The notes: generated by a model not told the origin, from the sequence alone. Counted from the stretch's first letter, positions 27,514-61,585 are shown. The stretch: DNA of 64,000 nucleotides from a candidate division WOR-1 bacterium RIFOXYB2_FULL_46_45 (GCA_001771585.1 MEUE01000001.1:21062-85061), one strand, 5' to 3'. Translations and numbers: made by a program.

Positions 27514-27607
27514 TGTGGTTATTTTAATGAATTTAGAATAGGGAAAGACAATTCATACAAGCTTTTTTAATGCAAGTTTGTTTAACATCATTGCGATATA
27601 ATAATGT

Positions 27608-39744: not shown

Positions 39745-40041
39745 CTTCTTCCATAATCTCGTCAGATCTCTTTTTCCGTGAATTATTCCCAATATTACAA
39801 TCCGTGAATCTTCCAACAGATAAATTAATCGGTAGTCGCTTACAAATAATTCCCTTATCTTGGAAGTATCGAATTCCGGAACAACTCGTCCTCTTTCCGA
39901 TAATTGACCAAGAGAATTAGCGGCATTGACGATGTCTTGTACAAAAGAGGCGGCGTAATAATGGGAATCCCTCGCTATGTATTCAGCAATGGATTCGAGA
40001 TCTTTGACTGATTCCTGTGCCCAGACTACTTTTCTAGCCAT
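39739..40041 (-). CDS. parE: Type II toxin-antitoxin system RelE/ParE-family toxin
   Basis: The 100-aa product reads VVWAQESVKDLESIAEYIARDS...RLIYLLEDSRIVILGIIHGKRDL, typical of ParE/RelE. Confidence 0.7.
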   Translation of the reverse strand: MARKVVWAQESVKDLESIAEYIARDSHYYAASFVQDIVNAANSLGQLSERGRVVPEFDTSKIRELFVSDYRLIYLLEDSRIVILGIIHGKRDLTRLWKKL

Positions 40042-48041: not shown

Positions 48042-48802
48042 TTAAAAAATAAGACCGACAAAAAATAATTTAAGATAAATAAAGCGATCAAACAGGCGAC
48101 TACGGAACCGGTCGTCGCTTCCCCCACCCCTTTGGCCCCGCCCCTGGTATTTAACCCTTTATGGCAGGCAATGATTGCCAAAACCACGCCAAAAACCAGC
48201 GACTTGATGATCCCGCCAAAGACATCCCATAATTTCAAAAGCTGCTGCGCCGAGTTCATGTAATCAATCGCGTTGATCTTGATCGCATAAACGGCCACCG
48301 CGTAGCCGCCAAAAAAACAGACCATATCCGCCAGAATAGTCAAAAGAGGCATCATCAGCATACAGGCCCAAAAACGGGGAATGACCAGGTAACGGATCGG
48401 ATTGCTCCCCAGGGCGGAAAGGGCGTCAATCTGCTCGGTTACTTTCATCGTCCCGAGTTCCGCGGTGATGGCGGAGGCGACCCGGGCGGAAATGATGATC
48501 CCGCTCAAGGCCGGAGCCAATTCCCTGGCTACCGCGATCGCCATAACGCCGCCGACAAATTTGCTGGCGCCGAATTTTACGAATTCGGTCGCAACCTGGA
48601 CCGCGAAGACCATCCCGACAAAAGCGGCGCCGATTAGGGCGATCGGAAGAGAATCGACTCCCATCTTTACCATCTGTTCGAGCGTCAGATCCACCCTGGT
48701 TTTTCCCTTAAAAATATTCGAAAGGGTTGAGGTAAAAAGAAGGGTTATCTCTCCGGTCTCCTCCAAAAAAGCGGCAACCGTCTTTTTTATTTCTTCAAGC
48801 AT
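48038..48802 (-). CDS. mlaE: ABC transporter permease (MlaE-like)
   Basis: The 254-aa polytopic protein is of the MlaE family and is translationally coupled to mlaF. Confidence 0.8.
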   Translation of the reverse strand: MLEEIKKTVAAFLEETGEITLLFTSTLSNIFKGKTRVDLTLEQMVKMGVDSLPIALIGAAFVGMVFAVQVATEFVKFGASKFVGGVMAIAVARELAPALSGIIISARVASAITAELGTMKVTEQIDALSALGSNPIRYLVIPRFWACMLMMPLLTILADMVCFFGGYAVAVYAIKINAIDYMNSAQQLLKLWDVFGGIIKSLVFGVVLAIIACHKGLNTRGGAKGVGEATTGSVVACLIALFILNYFLSVLFFK

Positions 48803-49650
48803 TGTAAAATTGCCTCCGGGACCGCTTCGGCAACATCCGTCGCGATCAAACCGTGGATTCCCTTTTGTTTTACCGCGAGATCTCCCGCCAGCCCGTGGAG
48901 ATAAACTCCCAAAATGGCCGCTTCGTAGGGAGAGGTTCCCTGGGCGATAAAAGAAGCGATAATTCCGGTTAAAACGTCCCCCATCCCGCCGCTGGCCATC
49001 CCCGAATTTCCGGTCGTATTAACGTAGAATTTTCCGTCGGGGGTAGCGACAACCGTCCCTGCCCCTTTCAAAACACAGATGACCCCCCATTTTTTTGCCG
49101 CATTCTTGGCGGCGGCAACCCGGTCGGCTAAAATAGCATCGATTGAAACGGCCAATAGCCGGGAGAGCTCTCCGGGATGCGGAGTTATTACCGCCGAGGA
49201 CTTAAAACGCATCAAAATGTTCGGGTTTTCGGAGATAGAATTCAAACCGTCGGCGTCGATCACGATCGGCTTGTTCCACCCGGTGATTTTTTCAAGAATG
49301 CTTGAGAAAGAGAGCCCCGGTCCGATCGCTATGACATCGGATTTTCCGGCCAATTCCAAAATTTGCGGGACGGTCCGGTCGCTGATCAAGCCGCGGATAT
49401 TTTCCGCCAGGCCGTAAGTAATTGATTCCGTAACCGCGATATCAATTAAACCGGAGATGCTTTTAGGGGCGGCAATTTTTACCAGTCCCGCGCCGGAACG
49501 AAGCGCACCTTTGGCACAGAGTATCGCGGCGCCGGACATTCCGGGAGAACCGGCAATAATAAAAACTTCACCGCAGTTCCCCTTGTGGGCATTGACCGCC
49601 CGACAGGGTAAAAGGCTTCGGTAATACTCTTTTTGTTTTATTTTAGCCAA
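48787..49650 (-). CDS. nnrD: NAD(P)H-hydrate dehydratase (YjeF C-terminal domain)
   Basis: HKGNCGEVFIIAGSPGMSGAAILCAKGALRSGAGLV is the YjeF_C signature, with GGMGDVLTG. Confidence 0.85.
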   Translation of the reverse strand: MAKIKQKEYYRSLLPCRAVNAHKGNCGEVFIIAGSPGMSGAAILCAKGALRSGAGLVKIAAPKSISGLIDIAVTESITYGLAENIRGLISDRTVPQILELAGKSDVIAIGPGLSFSSILEKITGWNKPIVIDADGLNSISENPNILMRFKSSAVITPHPGELSRLLAVSIDAILADRVAAAKNAAKKWGVICVLKGAGTVVATPDGKFYVNTTGNSGMASGGMGDVLTGIIASFIAQGTSPYEAAILGVYLHGLAGDLAVKQKGIHGLIATDVAEAVPEAILQCLKK

Positions 49651-49993
49651 GGTATTTTGCTATTTTTTGGAGCAGATCGGCCGGTTGGAACGGTTTCGAA
49701 ATATAATCGAGAGCTCCGGCGGCGAAGGCCTTCTTAATTACTTCACCGTCTTCATGAGCCGTCAGCATGATGAACTTGGTCCCTTTTTTCAATTTCTGGG
49801 CAACGGCAAAGCCGTCGATATCGGGCATGACGATATCAAGAAGAATAAGGTCCGGGTTTTCTCCCGCCTTTTTGATCGCCTCGGCTCCGTTCTTCGCTTC
49901 AATCACCTGGTATCCTTTGGCGGTCAGCAAGTCCTTGATGATTTTCCGGTTTGGATCCTGGTCGTCGGCTACAAGAATTTTTTTAGCGGACAT
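49643..49993 (-). CDS. Single-domain response regulator (CheY-like receiver)
   Basis: KILVADDQ is followed by the phospho-acceptor Asp in LILLDIVMPDIDGF and by LTAHED. The protein is 116 aa. Confidence 0.85.
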   Translation of the reverse strand: MSAKKILVADDQDPNRKIIKDLLTAKGYQVIEAKNGAEAIKKAGENPDLILLDIVMPDIDGFAVAQKLKKGTKFIMLTAHEDGEVIKKAFAAGALDYISKPFQPADLLQKIAKYLG

Positions 49994-50041
49994 AGTTTAC
50001 TCCTTTCTTGGTTGGCAATATTATAGCATACTGGCGTAAAT

Positions 50042-53000
50042 TTACGCGTTCACCAGATTACTCGCATCCCTATAATGCTCGTAAACAAAGTTATAAACTT
50101 CGATTTTCTTTATTTCACAATCTTGCTCTGTATAAGTTGGTTCCGGCAGTTTTTCATACAAAAGATCAGAAATGGTAGTTTTGACTCCTGCCCTATTTGG
50201 CTCAAAATCTCGCCAGTGAGAAACCAAAAGCGGCTTGAGATTTATAAGCAATTCATGAGATGTACCTTTTATGCAAGCAACTTCATCGGGATTGAGATTA
50301 TCTTTGATAAGCAGATCAAAAATCGCTAACTCCTCTTCGGTCATGTTTTCTCTGGCAGCGCGTTGTTCTTCTTCACTTAGATCTTTTGCCAAATCGATGA
50401 GATCTTCAAAAAGCTGGTCAATGTCATGGGCGCCGCTATTATATTCTTGCAAGAGAGAAATAAGCCTTTCCATAAATTTGGCCCGTTTTTTGTTTTTTCT
50501 AACCATTTCCGCTATTTTCTTTTTAAGTTCGGCACTCATACAAGCTACTTGCATATTCTTGTTTTCCAGCCCGGCAAAAAAAGCCTGAAGGGCATTGGCA
50601 TCAAGCAAGCTCAAATCTTTTATCTTTTTGTGCTGTGGAATGACATATTCACCCGCCTGGATAGATTTATCCAGCAAATCCTCTAAATCTTTTTTTACCT
50701 GGGAAACGTCCACGCTTTTTGCTCCCACATCGCGGATACGAGATGCCAAAACACGGACAGCTGTTACTTCGCGGCAATAATCTTCCGCGTTGGGATCAGG
50801 CAAGACCGAACGATAAGCGCTTTGCAAATCACTGGAAAGATTAAGAAACTTTTTCTTGTTTTCCTGGACGCCAATAATTTTGTCGGCATATTGTTCCAGG
50901 ATCAGCAATTTCTGCTCGCTCGGCGCTGCCAATAAAGGCTCAAGCTCCATTTTCTCTCCCCGCATAAATTCCTTTGCATTACGCAACGCCTTTTTCAGAT
51001 CAGTAAGCAACTCGTCTTTACTCCGAATAATTTCATCCTCATCCGTTCCGGTGGCCGCATATAAAGCCAAAGCACGCTCAATATTTTTAAACACGCCAAT
51101 ATAATCCACGATTAAACCGTTTTTCTTCCCTTCATCAGCAACACGGTTAGCGCGCGCGATAGTTTGCATCAAGGTATGGTTTTTAAGCGGCTTATCCAAA
51201 TAAAGAGTGGAAAGATTGGGCACATCAAAACCGGTCATCCACATGGCACAAACAAAGATAATGCGCAGATTGCTATTAGCCTTCTTAAACTCCTCTTCCA
51301 GATTACCATGGATTATCCGCTCTCTAATCGGTCGGACATCAATTTCATACTGTTCCATATCGCTAATTTCGTTTTGGTTGTCGCCCAAGCTGACCATAAC
51401 TGCCATATCCACTTTTTCGTATTGCTCCAGTTTGGCAAGGATCTTTTCCTGCTCGCGCTCGTCGGCAACGCGGGAAAGATCCATGCGCAATTTTGCAATA
51501 TAACGGCCCCATTCTTTTTTTACTTTGTCATACATCCTGAAAGCGGTCTTTTTATCAATGGATACCACCATTGCCTTGCCATCGTATCCCCGCCCCACAA
51601 AGTGCTCCACAATATCGCGGGCAATAGTATTAAGCCGGTCTTCACGGGTAACAATTTCATAAAAAGTGGAGTATTCCCTTTCCAGTTTTTCCTCTTCATC
51701 CTCATCAAGGTCATACCTGTCCAGCAATTGCCCTAATTGAACTTCCAGGTTTTCATTAACATTTTTGAGGCGCGGAACCCGATTCTCGTAAAAGAGCGGA
51801 ACGGTTGAACCATCAGCCACTGACTGTCCAAAGTTATAAACGGAAACATACTCGCCAAAAGTTTTGATTGTTTCCGGCTCATTAGCAGCCATCAATGGGG
51901 TACCGGTAAAGCCGATAAAAGAAGCGTTAGGCAGGGCCCGGCGCATATTAAGAGCCATTTGATCATACTGGGTGCGGTGCGCCTCATCGGTCATAACGAT
52001 TATGCTGTCGCGCGTGGAAATTGGTCCGGAGATATCCTGGAATTTTTGGATAGTAGTAAAAATTTGGCGATGGTCCTCACCCAGCAAAGCGTGAAGATGA
52101 GCGATGCTTTCAGCATGAACCTCTTTTTCATAAACCGCGCCAACATGGGCAAAATTATCATATGCTTGTCCATCCAGCTGCGCCCGGTCAGTTACAATTA
52201 CAAAGGTAAAATTGCCTTCCAATTTACGCAAGACTTTTTGCGACAGCCAGACCATGGAATATGATTTTCCCGAGCCTTGCGTGTGCCAGAAGACGCCAAG
52301 TTTGCCATCTTTTTCGTGACGATCAACGACATTATTAAATGCGCGATTGACCCCAAAATATTGAAAATAGCGCGGGAGTATTTTTTTGACAGAGCCAAGG
52401 GATTCGTCAAACAGCACAAAGTTTTCCAAGATATCAAGCAAGCGTGTTTTGTCGCAAATGCCGTTAATAATTGTTGCTAGGTCTGTTCTGGGTTTATCTT
52501 CTTCCCTTTTCGCCTTTTTCCATTCGTTAAAAAACTCATAAGGAGAGGTAAGGGAGCCAAATTTATTTTCAATGCCGTTAGAAATAATAATTCCCAGGTT
52601 ATACCAAAAAAGCTTGGGGATAGTGCCTTTGTAATCGCGGATATTATCGCGGTAGGCGTCAACCAGGCTTTTGTGCGAAGCTTTTAGTTCCAGGAGCACT
52701 AGCGGAATACCGTTAACAAAGAGGACGATATCCGGGCGTCTGGTATACATGGGGCCAACCACCCAGAGCTGGGAAACACAAAGGAAGTGGTTGTTTTTAG
52801 GGTTTTCAAAATCAAAAAACCGCACCCGATCTATTTTGTTTTGTCCTTTAGTATTAACGGTTTTAACGTTTGCCCCATCGCGCAAGAGCTGATAAACTTC
52901 GTGATTAGCTTTAACCAGGCTTAGGTTGGAGCGATCGCGGATAAGTTCATCTATGGCAATAACGAGGGCGCTTTCGGACAAGTGGGGATTGATCTTTTTA

Positions 53001-53173
53001 AGCGCTGGCATGAGATATTTTTCCAGCACCACTTCACCTTGATTTTTACGGCCAAGCAACAAATCGTTTTCTTCTTTAAAGGTGTCAATATGACAATCTT
53101 TATCCGCCCAAACTTTTTTGATGAGCCTGATAACCGTTTTTTCCACTAAATTAGCTTCGTTAAATTGGGTCAT
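50042..53173 (-). CDS. hsdR: Type I restriction enzyme R subunit (HsdR)
   Basis: The 1043-aa product has an SF2 helicase core with DEAH (VMTDEAHRTQ). Confidence 0.92.
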   Translation of the reverse strand: MTQFNEANLVEKTVIRLIKKVWADKDCHIDTFKEENDLLLGRKNQGEVVLEKYLMPALKKINPHLSESALVIAIDELIRDRSNLSLVKANHEVYQLLRDGANVKTVNTKGQNKIDRVRFFDFENPKNNHFLCVSQLWVVGPMYTRRPDIVLFVNGIPLVLLELKASHKSLVDAYRDNIRDYKGTIPKLFWYNLGIIISNGIENKFGSLTSPYEFFNEWKKAKREEDKPRTDLATIINGICDKTRLLDILENFVLFDESLGSVKKILPRYFQYFGVNRAFNNVVDRHEKDGKLGVFWHTQGSGKSYSMVWLSQKVLRKLEGNFTFVIVTDRAQLDGQAYDNFAHVGAVYEKEVHAESIAHLHALLGEDHRQIFTTIQKFQDISGPISTRDSIIVMTDEAHRTQYDQMALNMRRALPNASFIGFTGTPLMAANEPETIKTFGEYVSVYNFGQSVADGSTVPLFYENRVPRLKNVNENLEVQLGQLLDRYDLDEDEEEKLEREYSTFYEIVTREDRLNTIARDIVEHFVGRGYDGKAMVVSIDKKTAFRMYDKVKKEWGRYIAKLRMDLSRVADEREQEKILAKLEQYEKVDMAVMVSLGDNQNEISDMEQYEIDVRPIRERIIHGNLEEEFKKANSNLRIIFVCAMWMTGFDVPNLSTLYLDKPLKNHTLMQTIARANRVADEGKKNGLIVDYIGVFKNIERALALYAATGTDEDEIIRSKDELLTDLKKALRNAKEFMRGEKMELEPLLAAPSEQKLLILEQYADKIIGVQENKKKFLNLSSDLQSAYRSVLPDPNAEDYCREVTAVRVLASRIRDVGAKSVDVSQVKKDLEDLLDKSIQAGEYVIPQHKKIKDLSLLDANALQAFFAGLENKNMQVACMSAELKKKIAEMVRKNKKRAKFMERLISLLQEYNSGAHDIDQLFEDLIDLAKDLSEEEQRAARENMTEEELAIFDLLIKDNLNPDEVACIKGTSHELLINLKPLLVSHWRDFEPNRAGVKTTISDLLYEKLPEPTYTEQDCEIKKIEVYNFVYEHYRDASNLVNA

Positions 53174-54666
53174 AATTTTTGAGAAAAATAATTACATGCT
53201 TCTAATAGAAACTGTTCGAATTCGACAAGCCAATTATTAAAATCATCATTATTCAACATTTCCTTATAAAGCTGATTAAAAACTTCGTTTTCAGTTATAG
53301 AGATCGACGCCTCAACACATCTAGAAAATAAAATATGGGCAGGAGAATGATCTAAATGATATTGCAAATTTGCATTCGGATATTTATTTAAGTAATTTCT
53401 CAGCAAAAATTTTTCTGGGGGGTCACCAGAAAAGAGAAAACTTATTCTATCATCGGTTCCGATTATTGCTGAATAAACATCTCTCTTATCTCCATCAAAA
53501 ACCGCAGCATATCCAATATTTATTTTTGAAAGACCCCAAGTTCTCTTAAATACATCATAATTTTCCTTGACTTGTTTATCCGAACCAGAAAGAACAACGT
53601 TAATGTGTCTGTGTATATCACGATAACCTTTGTTTTGTAATGATTCCAGTGCTTTATTTATTATTCTTAGAGATACCGGATCTTCATAAAATAGATTTAA
53701 AAGTGGAAATATCTGAGAATCCATCTTTGAAAAAGCCGCATTAACACTAATTCTTTGAATTGAACGAGAATCATTGTTTTCCTTTTTTTCTATAAAAATA
53801 CGCGACTCATGATCAAAACTTGCAAGAAGCGTTGGCGAGTGCGTCGTAACAATAAATTGTTTTTGATCTTTCAATGCTATGTCCATTAAGACATCTACAA
53901 GTCTTCGTTGGATTTTAGGGTGCAACCCCAACTCTAATTCGTCAATTAAAACAAGAGATTTCTTCTCAGCCTGAACAGAATCAAGCAGGATGGCCAATAA
54001 AACATCTTCTCCAGAAGCTGAATTAAAACTGGTAAAAACATTATTCAGTTTATAACTGGCCTTATTATGATGCCTTGCGATATGAGCAAGCTCAAACGAA
54101 GTTTCAAAAACATACTCAAAATATTCAACAACCCGAGGATCAAGCTGAGTAATCGCTCCAGATGCCTGTGTATTAATAAACAAGACATTTGAACATGCCC
54201 GTGCTGGAGTTATGCGATCCACATCTATATAAATGACTTTTCTGTTTCGTATTTGACTTTCTTTTTTTGCAATCCCACTCCATTTTTTTGTGATAGCTGT
54301 TCTTTTTCCTTCTTTTTCTTCAGCATGCTTACCTATTTTATATTTAATATTATATTCCCAATCAGATGCCTGCTTATCATGTTTGGTAAATTTAACCAAA
54401 CGACCCCAAGTACAACGATTAAATTCCCCAGTCCCAATATCTCTCATTTGAAACTCAAAATGACTGCACGCCAACATAGCCAAAATGCTGGTTTTGCCAA
54501 TTTTATTGGTACCTGTAAGAACAGTTAGTGGATGTATAAAATTTAGATCCAATCTTGATATATTTCGAAACCTTTTTATAATCAATTTATGAGTAAATAG
54601 CGGAAATTGATGTTCATTGTCAAGATCAATATTTTTTAATTGTTGCCGAGTTTTATTAGGATTCAC
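53170..54666 (-). CDS. AAA_21-type ABC ATPase with a C-terminal TOPRIM-like region (RloA/RloB-, OLD- or PARIS-like candidate defence protein) embedded between hsdS and hsdR
   Basis: Walker A is LTGTNKIGKTS, Walker B is LVLIDELELGLHP, and the H-loop is IVTTHSPTLL. The C-terminal ~170 aa carry VVLSGSDK...AVFDGDKRD (TOPRIM-like DxD). It has 4-nt overlaps with both hsdR and hsdS. Confidence 0.55.
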   Translation of the reverse strand: MNPNKTRQQLKNIDLDNEHQFPLFTHKLIIKRFRNISRLDLNFIHPLTVLTGTNKIGKTSILAMLACSHFEFQMRDIGTGEFNRCTWGRLVKFTKHDKQASDWEYNIKYKIGKHAEEKEGKRTAITKKWSGIAKKESQIRNRKVIYIDVDRITPARACSNVLFINTQASGAITQLDPRVVEYFEYVFETSFELAHIARHHNKASYKLNNVFTSFNSASGEDVLLAILLDSVQAEKKSLVLIDELELGLHPKIQRRLVDVLMDIALKDQKQFIVTTHSPTLLASFDHESRIFIEKKENNDSRSIQRISVNAAFSKMDSQIFPLLNLFYEDPVSLRIINKALESLQNKGYRDIHRHINVVLSGSDKQVKENYDVFKRTWGLSKINIGYAAVFDGDKRDVYSAIIGTDDRISFLFSGDPPEKFLLRNYLNKYPNANLQYHLDHSPAHILFSRCVEASISITENEVFNQLYKEMLNNDDFNNWLVEFEQFLLEACNYFSQKL

Positions 54667-54670
54667 ACTT

Positions 54671-55828
54671 TCAACCCCTCTTCCCCGTAACCAACTGGGG
54701 AATTAAAAGATCACGGATTTTGGATAGATTTTGACTTTGATCAAGCAGGTTTGTAATTTTTGACCGGAGCATAGAAACCTTACTCTCAAAGTCTTCTAAT
54801 GTTTTTTTGTCTGGAACAAGTATATTGATCATTCCTACTTGTTTTGAATTTACGCTTTTCCTGGTAGTCCCACTTGATGAACCAACTACAAAGTTTTGAT
54901 ATTTTTCTGATATTAGAAAATAAAACAAAAAATAGCTTGTTAGCCGGCTCTTTATTTTTAATCTCATTAGATATGAGGCAAAAATTGCATCAACCTGCTT
55001 TTCACATATACCTATTTTCCCCGGATCAGCCATACGAATAATAAATATGTCCCCTTTTTGTATTGTGTATCTATTTTTATCATCTGCTTTAATTTCACAA
55101 CACGGCACAGATGACCAATTTATGTATGAAGTCTTATTAATATCCATACCTCGTAAAAACTTAACGCCGGATGTTTTGTCAATTGCTGATGTGGTAAACC
55201 CATATTGTGGTTGTATTAAATCCCCCAACCTCTTCACCCCCCACCCCTCCGGTATCTTGCCATACTCTGTCCCACTATCAACCATCTTAACCTTTTTATG
55301 GCAAGGAAATTTAAACTTCACAAACCACTCGGCATAAAGCCGCTGGGCTATTTCTTCCAGAATTTTGATCCGCTTTTCGTTGTTTTCAATCAGATCGTCG
55401 TAGGTGGAGAGGATGGAGGCGATGCGGGATTGGGTTGGGAGATCGGGACGATATGCAATAATTTGATTTAATAATCTTTGCGTCATTAATGGCTGGGCAG
55501 CGCCACCAGCATATTTATTTAAGTTTAATATCCTTAATAAATAATTGACATATGTCAAATTATTTTCTTCTTCATCAACTTTTGCAACTATTGTATTGTC
55601 AGAAGCCCAAAATCTACTTTTGCACATTTCAACGGATCCACAATAAGCGCCCACTCTACCTATTATTATTGCATTTTCATATTGGTATTCCTCAGATCCA
55701 CCAATGACCCCATTTGAACCAAAAACAGGATATCTCCCCTCTCCTCCAGGCCTTATTGATTTTCCATTAAAGAAATGTAATAAATCCCTTAATCTCACTT
55801 TCTTAAAATTTGCCTTATTTCTTTTCAA
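54671..55828 (-). CDS. hsdS: Type I restriction-modification specificity subunit (HsdS), two target-recognition domains
   Basis: The 385-aa product has HsdS-typical central and C-terminal conserved helices (LDDLIENNEKRIKILEEIAQRLY, LLDQSQNLSKIRDLLIPQLVTGK). Confidence 0.85.
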   Translation of the reverse strand: MKRNKANFKKVRLRDLLHFFNGKSIRPGGEGRYPVFGSNGVIGGSEEYQYENAIIIGRVGAYCGSVEMCKSRFWASDNTIVAKVDEEENNLTYVNYLLRILNLNKYAGGAAQPLMTQRLLNQIIAYRPDLPTQSRIASILSTYDDLIENNEKRIKILEEIAQRLYAEWFVKFKFPCHKKVKMVDSGTEYGKIPEGWGVKRLGDLIQPQYGFTTSAIDKTSGVKFLRGMDINKTSYINWSSVPCCEIKADDKNRYTIQKGDIFIIRMADPGKIGICEKQVDAIFASYLMRLKIKSRLTSYFLFYFLISEKYQNFVVGSSSGTTRKSVNSKQVGMINILVPDKKTLEDFESKVSMLRSKITNLLDQSQNLSKIRDLLIPQLVTGKRG

Positions 55829-55899
55829 TTCTCAACCTCTCCATCCCATGTTTCCTCCCTGACTTTCCAATCAAATAGCCATCAAATGACCTTCCCCAA

Positions 55900-56034
55900 T
55901 TAATATCTTTTGCCATCAGAACCAGTATTCCGGAATTTCCGGATAACTGCCTCCTTTGTCAATTCCGCTGCCAAAAATATGTTTTGCAAGTGCTCACTGA
56001 CTGTACGCACATCAACGCCAAAAAGTTCCTCCAT
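55900..56034 (-). pseudogene. Relic 44-codon fragment of a RhuM-family gene between hsdM and hsdS
   Basis: Translation MEELFGVDVRTVSEHLQNIFLAAELTKEAVIRKFRNTGSDGKRY aligns with the core of the intact RhuM two genes upstream (IALLFGVQRPAITKHLKNIFENGEL...TADDGKTY). It is truncated at both ends. Confidence 0.4.
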
Positions 56035-56040
56035 CCCTTT

Positions 56041-57621
56041 TCATACTACTTCCTTCCAGTCTTTAATTATCTTCTTTTCCAGCTTGTGTGATTCTTCAGT
56101 TAAAGAAGTAAATTCCGTCATTAACTCTTTCATCTTGGCGTCGAAATCAACCTTGCTGACTTCTTTTTCCACAATCTCCACGTAGCGCCCGGGATTAAGA
56201 GAATAGTCATTAGCACGCACTTCATCTAAAGTTGCAACTTTTGAGCGGCCCTTGATATCAGCATATTTTCCCGCGCCCTCTTCCTCACGATATCGCCGCA
56301 CAATACCGGCAATCTCCTGTATCTGCTCATCAGTCCAGGTACTATGAGCACGATCAATTTCAGTATAAATATCCTGGGCGTTAATAAAAAGAATTTTATT
56401 TTGCCTTTTTGTCCCGGCTTTGCGCTTATCAAAAAACCAAAGGGTACAGGAAAGCGTGGCGTTTAAAAACATATTGGTACCAACGGATAAGATAACATCC
56501 ACTATCCCATCCTCAACCATTTTTTGCCGAATAACTTTTTCGGCATTGCCGGCATCGGTCGCCGAATTGGCCATAACAAAGCCTGCCCGGCCTTGAGCAT
56601 TGAGCGCGCTGGCAAAGATTTGCATCCAAAGATAATTGGCGTTACTGATCTCTTTTTTCCCAGTCAGCGGCAAACCAAAATAATAGCGGGGATCACCTTG
56701 GAGACGCGCTTGGTCAATTACAATCTGCTTATTTTTATCTATACCCTTAACATTAAAAGGTGGATTAGCCAAAACAAAATCAAATTTACCTAAACTCTGA
56801 AAGGGATCTTCGTAATATGAATTTGTTTCGGCAATTTTACCGGACAGCCCGTGGATAGCCAGGTTCATTTTAGCGATATGCACATTAGCGGTTGTCTTCT
56901 CCTGGCCGTAGAGCGCGACCTCATTCATAACCCGCGTTTTATTTTTAGCGTGGGCCTCAACAAAATGGGCGGATTGGACAAACATGCCGCCGCTGCCGCA
57001 AGCCGGGTCAAAGATTTTACCATGATACGGCTCAAGGATTTCAACAATTAATTTTACAATCGGCTGCGCCGTAAAAAATTCGCCCCCTTTCGCTCCCTCT
57101 TTGCGGGCAAATTCACCAAGAAAATATTCGTATATTCCACCAAAAGCATCCCCCTCAATATCATCGGGAATTTGGTTAAAATTCTTAAGCAGAGTTACCA
57201 GTATCCGATTGTTTTCATCGGCTTTTTTCGAGAGTGAAGTGTAGTCTTGCGGCAAAACTCCGGCCAGATCGGTATTCTCTGCCTCGATTGCCTTCATTGC
57301 CTCATTAATTGTTTTTCCAATATCTTTGTTCTCGGGCAGGTTCATTAAGTATGAATAGGTGGCAATTTCAGGAAGATACAAAACTCCTTTTGATTTGTAA
57401 TGGTCTGGTGTTAATGGTACTTGCCGAGTACCCTTATTGTTTTTCCGTTCTTCTGCTATTTTTTCTTTGGCTCTTTTGAAGCGGACATCCGCGAATTTAA
57501 GAAAAATTAAACCAAGGATTGGCTCGGATATTTCATTGAGCTTAAGGCTGGAATTTGCCCGAAGTTGCTCTGCTGCAGCCCATAATCTTTCGTGGAGTTG
57601 TTTGCGGCTTGGTAGTAACAT
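56041..57621 (-). CDS. hsdM: Type I restriction-modification N6-adenine DNA methyltransferase (HsdM)
   Basis: The N-terminal HsdM_N domain is present. Motif I is DPACGSGGM and motif IV is NPPFN. Confidence 0.92.
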   Translation of the reverse strand: MLLPSRKQLHERLWAAAEQLRANSSLKLNEISEPILGLIFLKFADVRFKRAKEKIAEERKNNKGTRQVPLTPDHYKSKGVLYLPEIATYSYLMNLPENKDIGKTINEAMKAIEAENTDLAGVLPQDYTSLSKKADENNRILVTLLKNFNQIPDDIEGDAFGGIYEYFLGEFARKEGAKGGEFFTAQPIVKLIVEILEPYHGKIFDPACGSGGMFVQSAHFVEAHAKNKTRVMNEVALYGQEKTTANVHIAKMNLAIHGLSGKIAETNSYYEDPFQSLGKFDFVLANPPFNVKGIDKNKQIVIDQARLQGDPRYYFGLPLTGKKEISNANYLWMQIFASALNAQGRAGFVMANSATDAGNAEKVIRQKMVEDGIVDVILSVGTNMFLNATLSCTLWFFDKRKAGTKRQNKILFINAQDIYTEIDRAHSTWTDEQIQEIAGIVRRYREEEGAGKYADIKGRSKVATLDEVRANDYSLNPGRYVEIVEKEVSKVDFDAKMKELMTEFTSLTEESHKLEKKIIKDWKEVV

Positions 57622-57680
57622 TTACTCTAATTTTACCGTGTTTTGTAGTCATAAACAAGCACCCTCCATCCTACTCCCCC

Positions 57681-58763
57681 TCATCCCTCTTTGCTTCCAC
57701 GCTTCTTCTTCTCAATAGCCAAAAACTTTTTCACCTCGCGGTCAAAATCGGAAATGTAGTTTTTGTCCTGCGCCTGGCGATATTTTTCATATTCTTTCAA
57801 TGCCAGTGTCTCGGCGACTTCGTGTGCAATTTTCCCGGCGTCACCCAATATTTGTTGCTCGTTAAATTTTAGAAATGCGTCTAATTTTGATACCCAGTCC
57901 TTCATATACATAATAATCCCGCGATTAGCCTGCATTTCCGCAAAATCAAGGTACATGGTTACGATCCTATTGAGGTGATCAAGCTCTTTTTCGTTGAGAT
58001 AGTTTTTGGCAATCACCACGTCGGCCTCTCGAATTTTACCCTTTGGAGCATTTTTCCAAACAGTCAGCCCCATATTCACTTTAGTACTATCGGCTCTTTC
58101 GTGGATTATCTCTGCGGCAGTTTTGCCCGTCATGGCAAAGTGAAGCTTGTTTTGCACTGTGGCAAAAAATTGCCTGGTTATGTCGCTGTCTGGGGAATAG
58201 TCCGCACTACACTCCGCGTATATATCGGTAATCTTTTGATACATCCGTCTTTCGCTTGAGCGTATATCTCGTATTCGGGCAAGCTGCTCCTCAAAATAGT
58301 CTTGGCCAAAGATATTGTAAGGATTTTTGAGCCGCTCGTCATCCATGGTAAAGCCTTTGATGATATATTCTTTTAGCCTTTCCGTGGCCCAGATTCGAAA
58401 TTGTGTCGCTTGCGCGCTATTGACCCGATACCCCACGGAGAGAACCGCATCAAGATTGTAAAACTTTGTATTGTACGTTTTTCCATCATCGGCAGTATGT
58501 TCCAAAATGGAACTAACTGAATTTTCATTTAATTCGCCATTTTCAAAGATATTCTTAAGATGTTTAGTAATAGCAGGCCTTTGTACTCCAAATAAAAGGG
58601 CAATTTTGTCTTGAGTAAGCCAAATGTTTTCATCGCGCAAAAATATCTCAACTTTCACTTTGCCATTTGGTGTGGTATAAAGTAAAAACTCCGTAAAACT
58701 GTTGTTGGTAACAATTTGTTGGTTCTTTTTTTTCATAAGCGGTTTATCCTCACTATCTATCAA
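57681..58763 (-). CDS. rhuM: RhuM-family protein
   Basis: KVKVEIFLRDENIWLTQDKIALLFGVQRPAITKHLKNIFENGEL...DGKTYNTKFYNLDAVLSVGYRVNSAQATQFRIWAT is a strong match to the PF13310 RhuM consensus. Confidence 0.8.
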   Translation of the reverse strand: MIDSEDKPLMKKKNQQIVTNNSFTEFLLYTTPNGKVKVEIFLRDENIWLTQDKIALLFGVQRPAITKHLKNIFENGELNENSVSSILEHTADDGKTYNTKFYNLDAVLSVGYRVNSAQATQFRIWATERLKEYIIKGFTMDDERLKNPYNIFGQDYFEEQLARIRDIRSSERRMYQKITDIYAECSADYSPDSDITRQFFATVQNKLHFAMTGKTAAEIIHERADSTKVNMGLTVWKNAPKGKIREADVVIAKNYLNEKELDHLNRIVTMYLDFAEMQANRGIIMYMKDWVSKLDAFLKFNEQQILGDAGKIAHEVAETLALKEYEKYRQAQDKNYISDFDREVKKFLAIEKKKRGSKEG

Positions 58764-58788
58764 TTTTACGCCAATATTGCCAAATTAT

Positions 58789-60321
58789 CTACACCACCCT
58801 CATCTCCAATATCCGATCCACCCGAAAGACCCGCTCTTCCTGCCGATGATGGCAAAAAGCCCTGATGCCCAAAAAGGGCTTCTCGTTGTAGTACATCTCC
58901 CCCACTTCGAGCGGCTCAATCACCCGCTTTGACTTAACATCCTGCGCCTTGAGATATAAAACCTCAATCCGGTTTTTTTCTTCAATCGCCTTGGTGATTA
59001 TCGCGACTTTATCGTCCAACGAACACAGCTTCTCCGACAATCCGTATTGATACCCGGTCACAAACTTGACCACCCGCCAGTCCATGAAAATATGCCCTTT
59101 TTTGATCGGCTTCTTCAAGACCATCCCTTCCAGACTGCGGCAGCGGCTTAAGGCGACATACATTTGGCCGTGGGCAAAGGTCCCGTTCCCGATATCAATC
59201 ACCACCCGGTCAAAGGTCTTCCCCTGGCTCTTGTGGATAGTGATCGCCCAGGCCAGCTTGAGCGGAAACTGGGTAAAAGAGGCGGTTACCTCCGATTCAA
59301 TCCTCCGGTTTCTAGTATTGTAGCTGAAATGAAAAATTTCCCAGGTGTAAGGGTTAACCTCATGCGTCTCGCCGCTTTGCAATTGGATAACAAGTTCGTC
59401 CTTCTTGATGTCCTTAATTTTAGCCATGGTGCCATTGACCCAGCGGCCAAACTGATCGTTGTTTAGCATCATCACCTGCGCCCCTTTTTTCAGTTTCAGC
59501 TCAATTTCGGTCGGCAATTGATTCCTGTCAAACTGACCCTCCATCTCCCCTTCAAAAACCCGCTCTTTTCCGGGGAGCTGTTCCAGTTTTATTTCATTCA
59601 TCTCTTTTGCCATCCGGTTGGTGGTAGTCAAAAGGATCGAATAATCACCCTTTGGTTCGTAATCCACATCAACTCTTCTGTTAAGTTCCAGCAATTCGTT
59701 TTCTCCGGCGGTGTTGTTGCGGATCGAATTGAGCAGGGCAATAAACTTTTCGTCCCTCTGGCGGTAGACCTTTTCCAGCTCAAGATATTCCATCGTCAAT
59801 TGACCAAAAACTTTTGCGGAAAAAAAATATTCGCTGTCATAATGATTCTTAAAAATATGCTTCTCTTCCCCGGCTACCACCGGCGGCAGTTGATAGAGAT
59901 CGCCAAAAAAGATCATCTGCAGGCCGCCGAACGGCTTTTTCCGGTTCGGACCGTTTAAGCGCAGGAATTTATCAACGCAGTCAAGCAGGTCCGCCCGAAC
60001 CATCGAAATCTCGTCAATCACAATGGCATCAAGCTGTTTATAAATATTCGGCTTTCCGTCTCTAAACTTAATTTCCCTTATTTTTGAGAGCGTTATATCC
60101 GGCTTAAAATGAAAGAAAGAGTGGATCGTTTCTCCTCCCACATTGATCGCCGCCACTCCGGTCGGAGCCAAAACCACCACCCGCTTTTTGGTTTGATTGC
60201 GAAAATAATCGAGCAGGGTCGATTTTCCGGTCCCGGCCTTGCCGGTTATAAAGACATTCTTGCCGGTGTTTTCGATAAGACAGAGTGATTTTTTAAAGAG
60301 TTCGTTAAGTTCTACCGGCAT
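58789..60321 (-). CDS. PIF1/RecD-like SF1B DNA helicase with a C-terminal WYL-like domain
   Basis: Walker A is ITGKAGTGKST. Further motifs are VLAPTGVAAINVGGETIHSFF and DAIVIDEISMV. The C-terminus RVIEPLEVGEMYYNEKPFLGIRAFCHHRQEERVFRVDRI is WYL-like. It is the first gene of the leftward island. Confidence 0.8.
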   Translation of the reverse strand: MPVELNELFKKSLCLIENTGKNVFITGKAGTGKSTLLDYFRNQTKKRVVVLAPTGVAAINVGGETIHSFFHFKPDITLSKIREIKFRDGKPNIYKQLDAIVIDEISMVRADLLDCVDKFLRLNGPNRKKPFGGLQMIFFGDLYQLPPVVAGEEKHIFKNHYDSEYFFSAKVFGQLTMEYLELEKVYRQRDEKFIALLNSIRNNTAGENELLELNRRVDVDYEPKGDYSILLTTTNRMAKEMNEIKLEQLPGKERVFEGEMEGQFDRNQLPTEIELKLKKGAQVMMLNNDQFGRWVNGTMAKIKDIKKDELVIQLQSGETHEVNPYTWEIFHFSYNTRNRRIESEVTASFTQFPLKLAWAITIHKSQGKTFDRVVIDIGNGTFAHGQMYVALSRCRSLEGMVLKKPIKKGHIFMDWRVVKFVTGYQYGLSEKLCSLDDKVAIITKAIEEKNRIEVLYLKAQDVKSKRVIEPLEVGEMYYNEKPFLGIRAFCHHRQEERVFRVDRILEMRVV

Positions 60322-60674
60322 TATTCCATCACCACAAAGGCGATCGCGGTATTTCTTTCGTGGGATAAGCTGACGTGGATTTTGGGCTTCTTTTTTCCGT
60401 TGATATAAATATGCGGCTTGCCGGCTTTATCGTTAACAATTTCTATATGCTTCCAGCTCAAAGTCGCGGTAATTCCGGTCCCGTTCGCCTTGGCATAGGC
60501 CTCTTTGGCGGCAAAACGGACCGCCAATTCAGGAAAGCGGATCGCCTTGTGCGCCTGGCAGTAGCTTAATTCTTTTTGGGTGAAAACCCGCTTTAAAAAA
60601 CGATCGCCGTATCTTGAAACCGCCTCTTTTATGCGGGAAATTTCAACAATGTCAACGCCGATCCCTTTTATCAT
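60321..60674 (-). CDS. acpS: Holo-[acyl-carrier-protein] synthase
   Basis: MIKGIGVDIVEISRI...ERFLKRVFTQKE is the ACPS family. The protein is 117 aa. Confidence 0.9.
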   Translation of the reverse strand: MIKGIGVDIVEISRIKEAVSRYGDRFLKRVFTQKELSYCQAHKAIRFPELAVRFAAKEAYAKANGTGITATLSWKHIEIVNDKAGKPHIYINGKKKPKIHVSLSHERNTAIAFVVME

Positions 60675-61585
60675 TACTCAACCGGGGTCAGCCAGGATTT
60701 GTATTTGGGGTTTTCGCCTTTGACCGCTTTGAAGTATATCTCTTGCAGCTTTTTGGTGATCGGGCCGACTTTCCCTGCGCCAATCTTCTTTTTCTCAACT
60801 TGGGTAATCGGTGAAATTTGGACGCCGGTACCGCAAAAGAAGAGCTCATCCGCTTTGTACAAAGCGGCCGGCTTAAAGGATTTCTCAACGCATTTTATTT
60901 TTAACTCTTTTCTGGCTAGCTCCATGACCGCCAAACGGGTAATCCCGGGTAAAATATCATCCGACAGCGGCGGAGTTATCAGTTTCCCGTTTTTTACCAT
61001 GAAAATATTTTCCGCGCTCCCCTCCGCCACGTTCCCCCGGTGGGACAAAGTAATCGCCTCAACATACCCCCGGATCAGCGCTTCGGACTTGGCCAGCGAA
61101 GAATTAAAATAGGTCCCGGTCAATTTTGCTCCCGAGGGCATCGATTTTGAACTGATGCGGTGGTATTTTGAGATGCAAACCTTTATCCCTTCCGAGATAT
61201 CAAGATAATTGCCAAAAGGAGCCAGATAGATGGCAATATCATCCTCAACCCCGTATAAGCCCAAGCCGATTTTTTCTTCAGATTTATAGGCGATCGGACG
61301 GATATAAACATCCTCCCTGTAGCCATTCTTTTTGACCAGTTCAACGGTGATTTTGACAAGATCATCCAGGGTTGGATCTATTTTAGTGTGGATCGCTTTG
61401 CATGAACTCAACAAGCGCCGATAGTGCTCTTTTAATTTTAAGATGTAGGACTTCTGCTGTTCCTCGTTCCAATAGGCCCGAATCCCCTCAAAACAGCCGG
61501 TCCCGTAATTGAGCGCGTGGGTCATGATGCTCAAAGTGGCTTCTTCGAACGGGACAATTTTTCCTTTAAAGTAGGCGTATTTCAC
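60674..61585 (-). CDS. ilvE: Branched-chain amino acid aminotransferase (class IV)
   Basis: YGTGCFEGIRAY is present, with EHYRRLLSSCKAI and a catalytic Lys region. The protein is 303 aa. Confidence 0.85.
   Translation of the reverse strand: MKYAYFKGKIVPFEEATLSIMTHALNYGTGCFEGIRAYWNEEQQKSYILKLKEHYRRLLSSCKAIHTKIDPTLDDLVKITVELVKKNGYREDVYIRPIAYKSEEKIGLGLYGVEDDIAIYLAPFGNYLDISEGIKVCISKYHRISSKSMPSGAKLTGTYFNSSLAKSEALIRGYVEAITLSHRGNVAEGSAENIFMVKNGKLITPPLSDDILPGITRLAVMELARKELKIKCVEKSFKPAALYKADELFFCGTGVQISPITQVEKKKIGAGKVGPITKKLQEIYFKAVKGENPKYKSWLTPVE

What the first reader, a model, noticed from the sequence alone, without database searches (positions are those of the whole stretch)
50042..60321. Lower-GC Type I R-M defence island (PIF1-WYL helicase, rhuM, hsdM, rhuM relic, hsdS, ATPase-TOPRIM, hsdR)
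Six co-directional minus-strand genes with visibly lower GC lie between a response-regulator gene and acpS. Besides a complete hsdRMS set, the operon carries three accessory defence-type genes. Type I R-M loci are known integration hotspots for such genes, and this one combines several in one transcription unit.
Basis: partly seen in the sequence, partly recalled or inferred. Interest (0 to 1): 0.6.

Follow-up and report, generated by a model that had tools for sequence, protein, structure and literature searches.

The report
Restriction-modification island with embedded defence genes
An uncultured groundwater bacterium has acquired an intact Type I restriction-modification operon, with an OLD-like ATPase-nuclease and a RhuM gene nested inside it, between two housekeeping genes; this is a clear but ordinary example of a known way that bacteria stack anti-virus genes.

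Summary
Order: acpS | PIF1-WYL helicase, rhuM, hsdM, rhuM relic, hsdS, ABC-ATPase-TOPRIM, hsdR | response regulator, nnrD.

Two related Saganbacteria genomes have acpS directly next to nnr, so the block is an insertion.

The lower-GC claim is only partly right:
- hsdS (0.37) and the ATPase (0.33) are strong outliers against a window gene mean of 0.46.
- hsdM, hsdR and rhuM are only mildly low.
- The PIF1-WYL gene is native-like.

PIF1-WYL closely matches structurally characterised bacterial Pif1 helicases. Its closest homologues are in the same phylum and sit mostly in housekeeping contexts, so it is not shown to be a defence gene.

The ATPase-TOPRIM is a remote, full-length homologue of IbfA/HEC-04, an experimentally validated anti-phage protein. 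Its Walker A lysine and the E...DxD metal site are invariant.

Its closest clade (at least 58% identity) is nearly always nested in Type I R-M operons. More distant relatives are mostly standalone.

Verdict: a new member of a known kind (Type I R-M with embedded defence genes). Interest is modest. The one open lead is a possible PrrC-like guard role for the ATPase.

The parts
60321..60674 (-). acpS (holo-ACP synthase). This is the conserved upstream flank and is not part of the island.
   Evidence: PF01648 at 4e-22. TIGR00516 scores 111 bits against a cutoff of 59.8. Its TAA stop overlaps the pif1 ATG by 1 nt (TAATG).
58789..60321 (-). SF1B Pif1-family helicase with a C-terminal WYL domain (510 aa). 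It is absent from this position in relatives but has host-like composition. It is probably a lineage-typical genome-maintenance helicase rather than a defence gene.
   Evidence: PIF1 domain at 1e-31 and WYL at 6e-10. Full-length match to SsPif1 8BNS (E 1.6e-192) and DdPif1 8BNV (E 2.5e-166). GC 0.474. Closest homologues are in Saganbacteria.
57681..58736 (-). Intact rhuM (351 aa from the ATG at 58736; the longest ORF starts at TTG 58763). It is a predicted toxin-type accessory gene and matches PADLOC candidate PDC-S05.
   Evidence: PF13310 at 4e-110. PDC-S05 at 3e-147. Gene callers in public assemblies call the 351-aa form.
56041..57621 (-). hsdM, the Type I N6-adenine methyltransferase (526 aa).
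   Evidence: N6_Mtase at 1e-79 and HsdM_N at 1e-21. PADLOC MTase_I at 1e-188. Motifs DPACGSGGM and NPPF are visible in the translation.
55900..56040 (-). rhuM relic. About 45 codons of a RhuM N-terminal domain lie in frame right after the hsdM stop and end in TAA. It is the remnant of a second, different rhuM that once sat between hsdM and hsdS.
   Evidence: It is 59% identical over 46 aa to the RhuM of L183 (E 3e-16) but only 41% identical to the intact copy in the window.
54671..55828 (-). hsdS specificity subunit (385 aa, TTG start) with two target-recognition domains.
   Evidence: Methylase_S matches in two stretches. PADLOC Specificity_I covers residues 6-383. Against L097/L098, only the central and C-terminal conserved regions align at the DNA level; the target-recognition domains differ.
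53170..54666 (-). Embedded ABC-ATPase-TOPRIM protein (498 aa, GTG start). It is OLD-like and a remote full-length homologue of IbfA/HEC-04.
   Evidence: Residues K58, E328/D329 and D391/D393 are invariant. The AF2 model has pLDDT 89.4. Top Foldseek hits are OLD 6p74, GajA, retron Eco8 and PtuA. hhalign against R64 IbfA gives probability 99.7% and E 1.6e-25.
50042..53173 (-). hsdR restriction/translocase subunit (1043 aa). Its start overlaps the ATPase stop (ATGA).
   Evidence: TIGR00348 at 511 bits. PADLOC REase_I at 2e-168. Motifs present: PD...ELK nuclease motif, GSGKS, DEAH, QTIARANR. Best solved relative is EcoR124I HsdR at E 1e-32.
49643..49993 (-). Receiver-only response regulator (116 aa). 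It is also absent from relatives at this position but has host-like composition. Whether it belongs to the insertion is unresolved.
   Evidence: PF00072 at 1e-28. There is no hit in L001-L004. Its stop overlaps the nnrD start by 8 nt. An extended -10-like TGcTATAAT plus a Shine-Dalgarno sequence lies in the 48-nt spacer after hsdR.
48787..49650 (-). nnrD (NAD(P)HX dehydratase). This is the conserved downstream flank.
   Evidence: Carb_kinase at 6e-60 and TIGR00196 at 235 bits. It lies adjacent to acpS in L003 and L004.

Best explanation
The locus is a horizontally acquired, intact Type I restriction-modification operon (hsdM-hsdS-hsdR, nearest to the EcoR124I type). It was inserted between acpS and nnrD in a Saganbacteria (candidate division WOR-1) genome. 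Two single-gene defence candidates are nested in it.

Shown:
- The identities of all genes.
- Intact catalytic motifs.
- Absence of the block at this position in related genomes.
- A conserved hsdM-hsdS-ATPase-hsdR module in other organisms.

Inferred mechanism:
- HsdM2S1 methylates a bipartite target. HsdR2M2S1 translocates and cuts unmethylated incoming DNA.
- The embedded 498-aa protein is an OLD-like enzyme. Its N-terminal ABC ATPase (Walker A K58) acts as sensor or motor. It controls a C-terminal TOPRIM metal-dependent nuclease (E328, D391, D393).
- This protein gives a second, abortive-infection-type layer, as shown experimentally for its remote homologues HEC-04 and IbfA.
- RhuM is a third, toxin-type layer of unknown chemistry.
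- The layers most likely act independently but are inherited and expressed together.

The PIF1-WYL helicase upstream is most likely a lineage-typical 5'-3' DNA helicase that happens to border the island.
For: - Domain and family hits cover all genes.
- HsdR and HsdM motifs are intact.
- Relatives L003 and L004 have ilvE-acpS-nnr-mlaEFD with no insert.
- L098 carries the same hsdM-hsdS-ATPase-hsdR module at similar divergence for each conserved gene (HsdM 74%, ATPase 71%, HsdR 78%, but HsdS 36%). The DNA is collinear from the hsdS 3' end through hsdR.
- L187 has the same order, with a 4-nt ATPase/hsdR overlap.
- For the ATPase-TOPRIM: a 40-sequence alignment has invariant K58, E328/D329 and D391-G-D393. 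The AF2 model has pLDDT 89.4. Top Foldseek hits are Class 1 OLD 6p74 (E 4.5e-13), GajA, retron Eco8 and PtuA.
- The HEC-04 HMM scores 106 bits for this protein and 141 bits for IbfA itself. hhalign against IbfA aligns 455 columns at 99.7% probability, including the EDD and LDGD motifs.
- HEC-04 defence requires its Walker A lysine and the equivalent E/D/D residues (bioRxiv 10.1101/2024.01.29.577857). IbfA interferes with phages (PMC12111858).
- RhuM-like genes in R-M operons were proposed to be toxins (PMC3710099).
Against: - There is no functional data for this locus.
- The relationship to HEC-04/IbfA is remote (21% identity; no tblastn hit to IncI1 plasmids at E 1e-5), so the mechanism is transferred by analogy.
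- Full-length Foldseek TM-scores are low (0.3-0.4), because the alignment spans two domains.
- The compositional signal of foreign origin is strong only for hsdS and the ATPase.
- No integrase, tRNA or flanking direct repeats mark an insertion mechanism.
- Only two informative relatives, from different genera, define the 'empty' site. All 24 same-species contigs read carry the island at 100% DNA identity.
Confidence: 0.75

Rival explanations
1. Guard model. The ATPase-TOPRIM is not an independent layer. It is a PrrC-like sentinel that is physically or functionally coupled to the Type I R-M complex. It would be held inactive by HsdMS(R). It would release its nuclease when a phage anti-restriction protein (an Ocr/ArdA/Stp type) disables the restriction enzyme.
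For: - It occupies the same slot as prrC in EcoprrI (hsdM-hsdS-X-hsdR; established knowledge, and for PrrC being almost exclusively embedded in Type I R-M).
- It is translationally coupled on both sides.
- In the clade at or above about 58% identity, 6 of 7 loci are inside Type I R-M operons, against about 6 of 77 for more distant members (Fisher p about 1e-4, not corrected for phylogeny).
- In L188 the same clade is nested in a different Type I family (EcoEI-type HsdR) and at a different position (hsdM-X-hsdS). This argues for an association with Type I function rather than simple co-inheritance.
- Related ABC-ATPase systems (PARIS, Gabija, PrrC) are triggered by anti-restriction proteins.
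Against: - Most family members, including L189 at 52% identity, are standalone, with no conserved partner gene.
- HEC-04 and IbfA protect on their own in heterologous hosts.
- The C-terminal effector is a TOPRIM domain, not the HEPN anticodon nuclease of PrrC.
- Embedding alone is also explained by Type I operons being insertion hotspots.
Confidence: 0.25
2. The PIF1-WYL helicase and RhuM form a functional defence pair, or a conserved anchor for defence islands, so the helicase belongs to the system.
For: - In L183 a 69%-identical PIF1-WYL is again followed directly by a RhuM (61% identity) and then by a type I-C CRISPR-Cas operon.
- In L179 the orthologue follows an MTase/HsdS-like cluster.
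- The upstream flank differs in every genome sampled, so the helicase is not at a fixed core position.
- WYL domains are common in defence regulators (PMC9964779).
Against: - Only 2 of 7 contexts have RhuM next to it.
- L184, L185 and L186 are in essentially housekeeping surroundings.
- Its composition is host-like.
- The protein matches biochemically characterised Pif1 helicases over its full length, and in those the WYL domain is an ssDNA-binding accessory module.
- PADLOC hits cover only generic helicase and WYL segments.
Confidence: 0.1
3. The block is ancestral to this lineage rather than an acquired island. The low GC of hsdS and the ATPase would then simply be intrinsic to those genes.
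For: - hsdM, hsdR, rhuM and pif1 have near-host codon usage.
- In the low-GC contig L098 the ATPase and hsdS are also the lowest-GC genes of the module, so part of the dip is intrinsic.
- All same-species contigs carry it.
- No mobility genes or repeats are present.
Against: - L003 and L004 have acpS abutting nnr.
- L001 and L002 have yet other genes at this site, so the site is variable.
- The hsdM-hsdS-ATPase-hsdR module occurs at 70-78% protein identity in an unrelated contig of 29-37% GC. That is higher than the identity of flanking core genes to the nearest relatives (AcpS 56%, NnrD 41-47%).
Confidence: 0.05

Closest known systems
Type I R-M operons with embedded defence genes (PrrC in EcoprrI; TgvAB in V. 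cholerae VPI-2; the 'guilt-by-embedding' sets of Payne et al. 2024)
   Same: A complete hsdM/hsdS/hsdR set is interrupted by unrelated defence-type genes. The ATPase sits in the prrC slot between hsdS and hsdR. RhuM in such operons was already noted by Anantharaman et al. 2013.
   Different: The embedded effector here is an ABC-ATPase-TOPRIM fusion. It is not a HEPN anticodon nuclease (PrrC) and not a GmrSD-like type IV enzyme (TgvAB). The host is an uncultured Saganbacterium.
HEC-04 / IbfA (single-chain ABC ATPase-TOPRIM anti-phage proteins)
   Same: The length (about 500-520 aa) and architecture are the same. Homology runs the full length (hhalign 99.7%, 455 columns). The Walker A lysine and the E...DxD metal site are conserved, and these are required for HEC-04 defence.
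   Different: Identity to IbfA is only 21%, with no BLAST-level match. This is a distinct narrow family: about 13 clusters at 50% identity score at least 400 bits, then scores drop to about 190 bits. It has its own invariant residues in Insert 1 (C67-S68-H69, W87, W103, W129). HEC-04 was found in Hma systems and IbfA on IncI1 plasmids, whereas this clade is nested in Type I R-M.
OLD-family nucleases (Class 1 OLD of Thermus scotoductus 6P74; GajA; retron Eco8 effector)
   Same: These are the best structural matches of the AF2 model (Foldseek E 4.5e-13 to 1.8e-12). They share the ABC ATPase followed by a TOPRIM nuclease.
   Different: Sequence HMMs for Old and GajA match only the ATPase signature/Walker B segment (residues about 230-320). 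TM-scores are 0.3-0.4. The inserts and the C-terminal helical bundle differ. No partner helicase (as in Gabija) or retron is present.
Bacterial Pif1 helicases with a C-terminal WYL domain (TePif1, DdPif1, SsPif1)
   Same: The match to SsPif1 (8BNS) is full-length at E 1.6e-192 and includes the WYL domain. In TePif1 the WYL domain is an accessory ssDNA-binding module (bioRxiv 10.1101/163188; PMC9964779).
   Different: The characterised members come from thermophiles. This one is from a groundwater Saganbacterium and sits next to rhuM and an R-M operon.

Membership tests
Type I restriction-modification system | HsdR with an N-terminal PD-(D/E)xK nuclease motif and SF2 translocase motifs | tested here: met
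   HSDR_N, SWI2_SNF2/ResIII, T1R_D3 and T1RH-like_C domains. TIGR00348 scores 511 bits against a cutoff of 285. Motifs PD...ELK, GSGKS, DEAH, FTGTP and QTIARANR are present in the translation.
Type I restriction-modification system | HsdM gamma-class N6-adenine methyltransferase with the AdoMet motif and NPPF | tested here: met
   HsdM_N plus N6_Mtase (1e-79). PADLOC MTase_I at 1e-188. DPACGSGGM and NPPF are present. The TIGR00497 equivalog scores only 106 bits against a cutoff of 243, so it is not that particular equivalog.
Type I restriction-modification system | HsdS with two target-recognition domains separated by conserved regions | tested here: met
   Two Methylase_S stretches. PADLOC Specificity_I covers residues 6-383. 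The conserved central and C-terminal regions align to L097/L098 while the target-recognition domains do not.
Type I restriction-modification system | Sequence-specific methylation and ATP-dependent restriction activity | not testable with these tools
   This needs a methylome (SMRT/ONT) of the MAG or heterologous expression.
HEC-04 / IbfA-like ABC ATPase-TOPRIM defence proteins | Single polypeptide with an N-terminal ABC ATPase that has an intact Walker A lysine | tested here: met
   GTNKIGKT, with K58 invariant in 40 homologues. SMC_N, AAA_15 and AAA_21 hits. The AF2 fold matches PtuA, OLD and GajA ATPases.
HEC-04 / IbfA-like ABC ATPase-TOPRIM defence proteins | C-terminal TOPRIM domain with the acidic metal site (E ... 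DxD) | tested here: met
   E328/D329 and D391-G-D393 are invariant. They align to the EDD and LDGD motifs of IbfA. The PADLOC retron I-B ATPase-Toprim model is matched to its end (positions 185-441 of 443). No Pfam Toprim model scores at E 0.001 or better.
HEC-04 / IbfA-like ABC ATPase-TOPRIM defence proteins | Significant match to the family profile over most of its length | tested here: inconclusive
   PDLC04149 HEC-04: E 3.2e-31, 106.5 bits, profile positions 19-410 of 494. IbfA, which PADLOC users call HEC-04, scores 141 bits. PADLOC's own score and coverage thresholds were not available here. The nearest relatives form a separate narrow family.
HEC-04 / IbfA-like ABC ATPase-TOPRIM defence proteins | Anti-phage activity that depends on the ATPase and TOPRIM residues | not testable with these tools
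   This is shown only for HEC-04 and, as phage interference, for IbfA.
PrrC/RloC anticodon nucleases | ABC ATPase fused to a C-terminal HEPN anticodon-nuclease domain | tested here: not met
   The C-terminal domain is TOPRIM-like. No PrrC model appears among the best PADLOC hits. Only the gene position (hsdS-X-hsdR) is shared.
OLD family nucleases (classes 1-4) | OLD-type ATPase with a dimerisation insert plus OLD-type TOPRIM, detectable by family profiles | tested here: inconclusive
   The best structural match is Class 1 OLD 6p74, but TM is only 0.34. The Old and GajA HMMs match only residues about 231-320. The phmmer hit to 6p74 covers residues 233-299 only.
RhuM family (PF13310) | Match to the RhuM domain above the gathering score | tested here: met
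   367 bits against a cutoff of 33.7. PADLOC PDC-S05 at 3e-147.
Pif1-family SF1B helicase with WYL domain | PIF1 helicase core plus a C-terminal WYL domain, homologous to characterised bacterial Pif1 proteins | tested here: met
   PF05970 at 1e-31 and PF13280 at 6e-10. SsPif1 8BNS matches at E 1.6e-192 over residues 3-508.

The most novel reading that the evidence does not exclude
A distinct clade of IbfA/HEC-04-like ATPase-TOPRIM nucleases may have specialised as a guard of Type I restriction enzymes. It is nested in at least two different Type I families, in the hsdS-X-hsdR or hsdM-X-hsdS position. It would fire when phage anti-restriction proteins disable the R-M complex. This would be a DNA-nuclease analogue of the PrrC/EcoprrI anticodon-nuclease arrangement.
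Probability: 0.22. Interest if true: 0.6.

Novelty: new member of a known kind. Interest (0 to 1): 0.3.

Why it matters
- It adds a clean example from a poorly studied candidate phylum (Saganbacteria/WOR-1) to the growing picture that multi-gene defence systems carry other defence genes nested inside them.
- It links an uncharacterised, narrow ATPase-TOPRIM family to the experimentally validated HEC-04/IbfA proteins.
- The clade-specific nesting in Type I R-M operons gives a concrete, testable guard hypothesis.
- Otherwise every component belongs to a described family, and the arrangement is of a kind already catalogued.

Tried and rejected
1. Apparent strain variant. Locus L090 listed a 327-aa HsdS and a 435-aa ATPase, which suggested a swapped hsdS-ATPase cassette. 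The DNA is 100% identical to the window, so these are only different start-codon calls. The short ATPase call would remove the Walker A motif.
2. Island-less strains of the same species. Exact look-ups of AcpS, NnrD and the ATPase found only contigs identical to the window.
3. Insertion signatures. There are no tRNA genes in the window and no integrase. Only short, imperfect direct or inverted repeats were found, consistent with chance.
4. Operon signals. Sigma-70-like promoters and intrinsic terminators occur at shuffled-sequence frequency.
5. A conserved partner gene for the ATPase-TOPRIM. Clustering the neighbours of 80 metagenomic loci gave no universal partner. One gut-metagenome sub-clade is followed by a WecG-type glycosyltransferase, which is probably unrelated.
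6. A direct BLAST link to IbfA. tblastn against 72,556 plasmids gave no IncI1 hit. The link appears only at the profile level.
7. The rhuM relic in the sister module L098. It is absent there, so the relic is specific to this lineage.
8. MADS membership. Only far-sub-threshold hits to MAD2, MAD3 and MAD5 were found.

Full report
**What is there**

ORF listing and three profile libraries confirm a run of co-directional minus-strand genes. In order:
- argS (61582-63075), ilvE (60674-61585) and acpS (60321-60674)
- a PIF1-family helicase with a C-terminal WYL domain (58789-60321)
- rhuM (57681-58736/58763)
- hsdM (56041-57621)
- a 212-nt spacer
- hsdS (54671-55828)
- an ABC-type ATPase (53170-54666)
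- hsdR (50042-53173)
- a receiver-only response regulator (49643-49993)
- nnrD (48787-49650) and mlaE, mlaF, mlaD

HsdR carries the PD...ELK nuclease motif and SF2 motifs GSGKS, DEAH, FTGTP and QTIARANR. HsdM carries DPACGSGGM and NPPF. HsdS has two Methylase_S stretches. The R-M set is therefore complete and looks intact. The best solved relative of HsdR is EcoR124I (E 1e-32).

The spacer between hsdM and hsdS holds about 45 codons, in frame directly after the hsdM stop. They match the N-terminal domain of RhuM proteins at 41% over 41 aa to the intact copy and 59% over 46 aa to another RhuM (E 3e-16). It derives from a different rhuM than the intact one.

**Spacing**

- acpS and pif1 overlap by one base (TAATG).
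- hsdS and the ATPase are 4 nt apart.
- The ATPase and hsdR overlap by ATGA.
- The other junctions are 48-212 nt.
- Promoter-like and terminator-like sites occur at the frequency of shuffled sequence, so the claim of a single transcription unit cannot be judged.
- The 48-nt spacer after hsdR contains TGcTATAAT and AAGGAG in front of the response-regulator gene. This is a consensus match only.

**Composition**

The 48 other ORFs in the window have mean GC 0.464 (sd 0.039).

| Gene | GC | z |
|---|---|---|
| ATPase | 0.330 | -3.5 |
| hsdS | 0.367 | -2.5 |
| rhuM | 0.409 | -1.4 |
| hsdM | 0.428 | about -0.9 |
| hsdR | 0.430 | about -0.9 |
| PIF1-WYL | 0.474 (GC3 0.607) | +0.25 (GC3 +1.0) |

A distance in synonymous codon usage singles out only the ATPase (4 of 47 control genes exceed it) and, more weakly, hsdS. 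The 'lower-GC island' is therefore a mosaic, and the helicase is not part of the dip.

In the sister locus L098 the ATPase and hsdS are also the lowest-GC genes of the module, at 0.29-0.30 against 0.33-0.37. Part of the dip is thus intrinsic to these genes.

**Organism and island status**

Exact-protein look-ups place the window on contigs of more than 1.6 Mb from Rifle-type groundwater metagenomes. NCBI names the helicase as from 'candidate division WOR-1 bacterium RIFOXYA12_FULL_43_27'. The nearest IlvE relatives are Saganbacteria/Margulisiibacteriota MAGs.

The site varies among relatives:
- L003 (IlvE 70% identical) and L004 (65%) have argS-ilvE-acpS-nnr(E)D-mlaEFD, with acpS directly abutting nnr.
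- L001 has an SLH-domain protein at this site.
- L002 has a 2,719-aa ORF at this site.

The site is therefore variable, and the roughly 10.7 kb between acpS and nnrD is an insertion relative to these genomes. The response regulator is also missing from the relatives, so its status is open.

All same-species contigs are 100% identical to the window, so no island-less strain was found. An apparent variant (L090) was only a difference in start-codon calls. No tRNA, integrase or convincing flanking repeats mark the boundaries.

**The ATPase-TOPRIM**

Pfam sees only the ATPase (AAA_15, AAA_21, SMC_N). PADLOC gives HEC-04 (3e-31) and the retron I-B ATPase-Toprim model matched to its C-terminal end.

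A 40-sequence alignment of homologues shows these invariant residues:
- Walker A lysine K58
- a CEDD motif (E328, D329)
- a DGD motif (D391, D393)
- family-specific residues in the first ATPase insert (C67-S68-H69, W87, W103, W129)
- an N-terminal NPN motif, which supports the GTG start

The AlphaFold model is confident (pLDDT 89.4). Its best PDB matches are the Class 1 OLD nuclease 6P74, GajA, the retron Eco8 effector and PtuA. TM-scores are low (0.3-0.4).

[quoted passage not shown] Its defence requires K62 and E319/D375/D377. IbfA of IncI1 plasmids is reported as its homologue and interferes with several phages.

I fetched IbfA from plasmid R64. hhalign of the family alignment against it gives 99.7% probability, E 1.6e-25 and 455 aligned columns. 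The EDD and LDGD motifs are in register, but identity is only 21%. IbfA itself scores 141 bits on the HEC-04 model, against 106.5 bits for the window protein. There is no BLAST-level link to plasmids.

An exhaustive profile search of 1.84 billion representatives finds about 13 clusters of the narrow family (at least 400 bits). Scores then drop to about 190 bits for a broader set of ATPase-TOPRIM proteins of 500-525 aa. In total 190 representatives reach E 1e-30 or better. PHROG 3940 (unknown function) matches over the full length.

**Where this family sits**

Among 80 metagenomic loci, only about nine have Type I genes nearby, and no universal partner gene exists.

The close clade behaves differently:
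- L097 (81% identity), L098 (71%), L187 (70%) and L099 (65%) all have hsdS-ATPase-(X)-hsdR. In L098, divergence is similar for HsdM, the ATPase and HsdR (74, 71 and 78%), while the HsdS target-recognition domains differ.
- L188 (59%) has the gene between hsdM and hsdS of an EcoEI-type system that also carries a RhuM-Fic fusion.
- L189 (52%) is standalone.

Counting the window, 5 of 6 loci at 59% identity or more have Type I genes, against 6 of 78 below that. Fisher p is about 8e-5, not corrected for shared ancestry. L188, at 58.6% by tblastn, falls just below that cut-off and is also embedded.

This pattern fits a stable mobile four-gene module. It also leaves room for a PrrC-like guard relationship, which I rate at roughly one in four.

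**The helicase**

The 510-aa protein matches SsPif1 (8BNS) at E 1.6e-192 and DdPif1 (8BNV) at E 2.5e-166 over its full length, including the WYL domain. These are characterised bacterial Pif1 helicases. In their homologue TePif1, the WYL domain is an accessory ssDNA-binding module.

Its nearest homologues (68-72%) are in other Saganbacteria/Margulisiibacteriota. That divergence is comparable to core genes.

The six sampled contexts differ from one another:
- L184, L185 and L186 are essentially housekeeping.
- L181 has an AAA_14/DUF4143 gene nearby.
- L179 follows a methyltransferase/HsdS-like cluster.
- In L183 the helicase is again followed by a RhuM (61% identity), then by a type I-C CRISPR-Cas operon.

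The recurrence of pif1-rhuM next to two different defence systems is a lead, not a result (2 of 7 contexts). On present evidence the helicase should not be counted as a defence accessory gene.

**Comparison with what is known, and verdict**

Type I R-M operons interrupted by other defence genes are well documented. Examples are PrrC in EcoprrI, TgvAB in Vibrio cholerae VPI-2, and the systematic 'embedding' survey that produced the HEC and PDC candidates. RhuM in R-M operons was noted in 2013. Every component here belongs to a described family.

What is specific to this locus:
- the host phylum
- the rhuM relic, which documents turnover inside the operon
- a narrow ATPase-TOPRIM clade that is almost always nested in Type I systems

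I classify the finding as a new member of a known kind, with modest interest (0.3). The most novel reading not excluded is the guard hypothesis.

Noticed in passing
window 19908-22306 (+): A two-gene block: a 471-aa ORF with no Pfam hit, followed by a radical-SAM ORF. GC is 0.36 and GC3 is 0.21-0.27. These are the strongest codon-usage outliers in the window and are probably another acquired segment.
   Followed up: partly
window 25646-28246 (+): A metallophosphoesterase ORF followed by two ORFs with no Pfam hit. GC is 0.36-0.43, also a compositional outlier.
   Followed up: partly
window 39739-40041 (-): A ParE-family toxin ORF (PF05016, 9e-17) with GC 0.40. Public gene calls show a small ORF next to it that may be the antitoxin.
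   Followed up: no
window 49994-50041 (- strand): The 48-nt spacer after hsdR reads aTGcTATAAT...AAGGAG...ATG. That is an extended -10-like box and a Shine-Dalgarno sequence in front of the response-regulator gene, so the downstream RR-nnrD-mla genes may have their own promoter. The tool's promoter scan, which requires two hexamers, did not list it.
   Followed up: no
L183 6001-13605: In another Margulisiibacteriota contig, a 69%-identical PIF1-WYL helicase is followed directly by a RhuM (61% identity) and then by a cas3-cas5d-csd1-cas7 type I-C operon. The same helicase-RhuM pair sits next to a different defence system.
   Followed up: partly
L188 2220-9632: An EcoEI-type Type I system in the order hsdR - RhuM/Fic fusion - hsdM - ATPase-TOPRIM (59% identical to the window protein) - hsdS. 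The same ATPase clade is embedded in another Type I family at another position.
   Followed up: partly
L099 2247-3749; L187 9954-10838: Sister modules carry further inserts. L099 has an AAA_14/DUF4143 ATPase between the ATPase-TOPRIM and hsdR. L187 has an Mrr-type restriction gene right after hsdR. Both are consistent with ongoing gene turnover in these operons.
   Followed up: no
window 50378 and 56967 (contig ends of GCA_001771695.1): The NCBI MAG assembly breaks inside the island. One contig ends within hsdM and another starts within hsdR, so the hsdS-ATPase segment is missing from those two contigs. The cause is not determined; coverage, composition or related R-M paralogues in the community are possible.
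   Followed up: no
window 49643-49993 (-): The receiver-only response regulator overlaps the nnrD start by 8 nt and is absent from L001-L004 at this position. In L003 the gene at this position is instead a fused NnrE-NnrD of 517 aa.
   Followed up: partly
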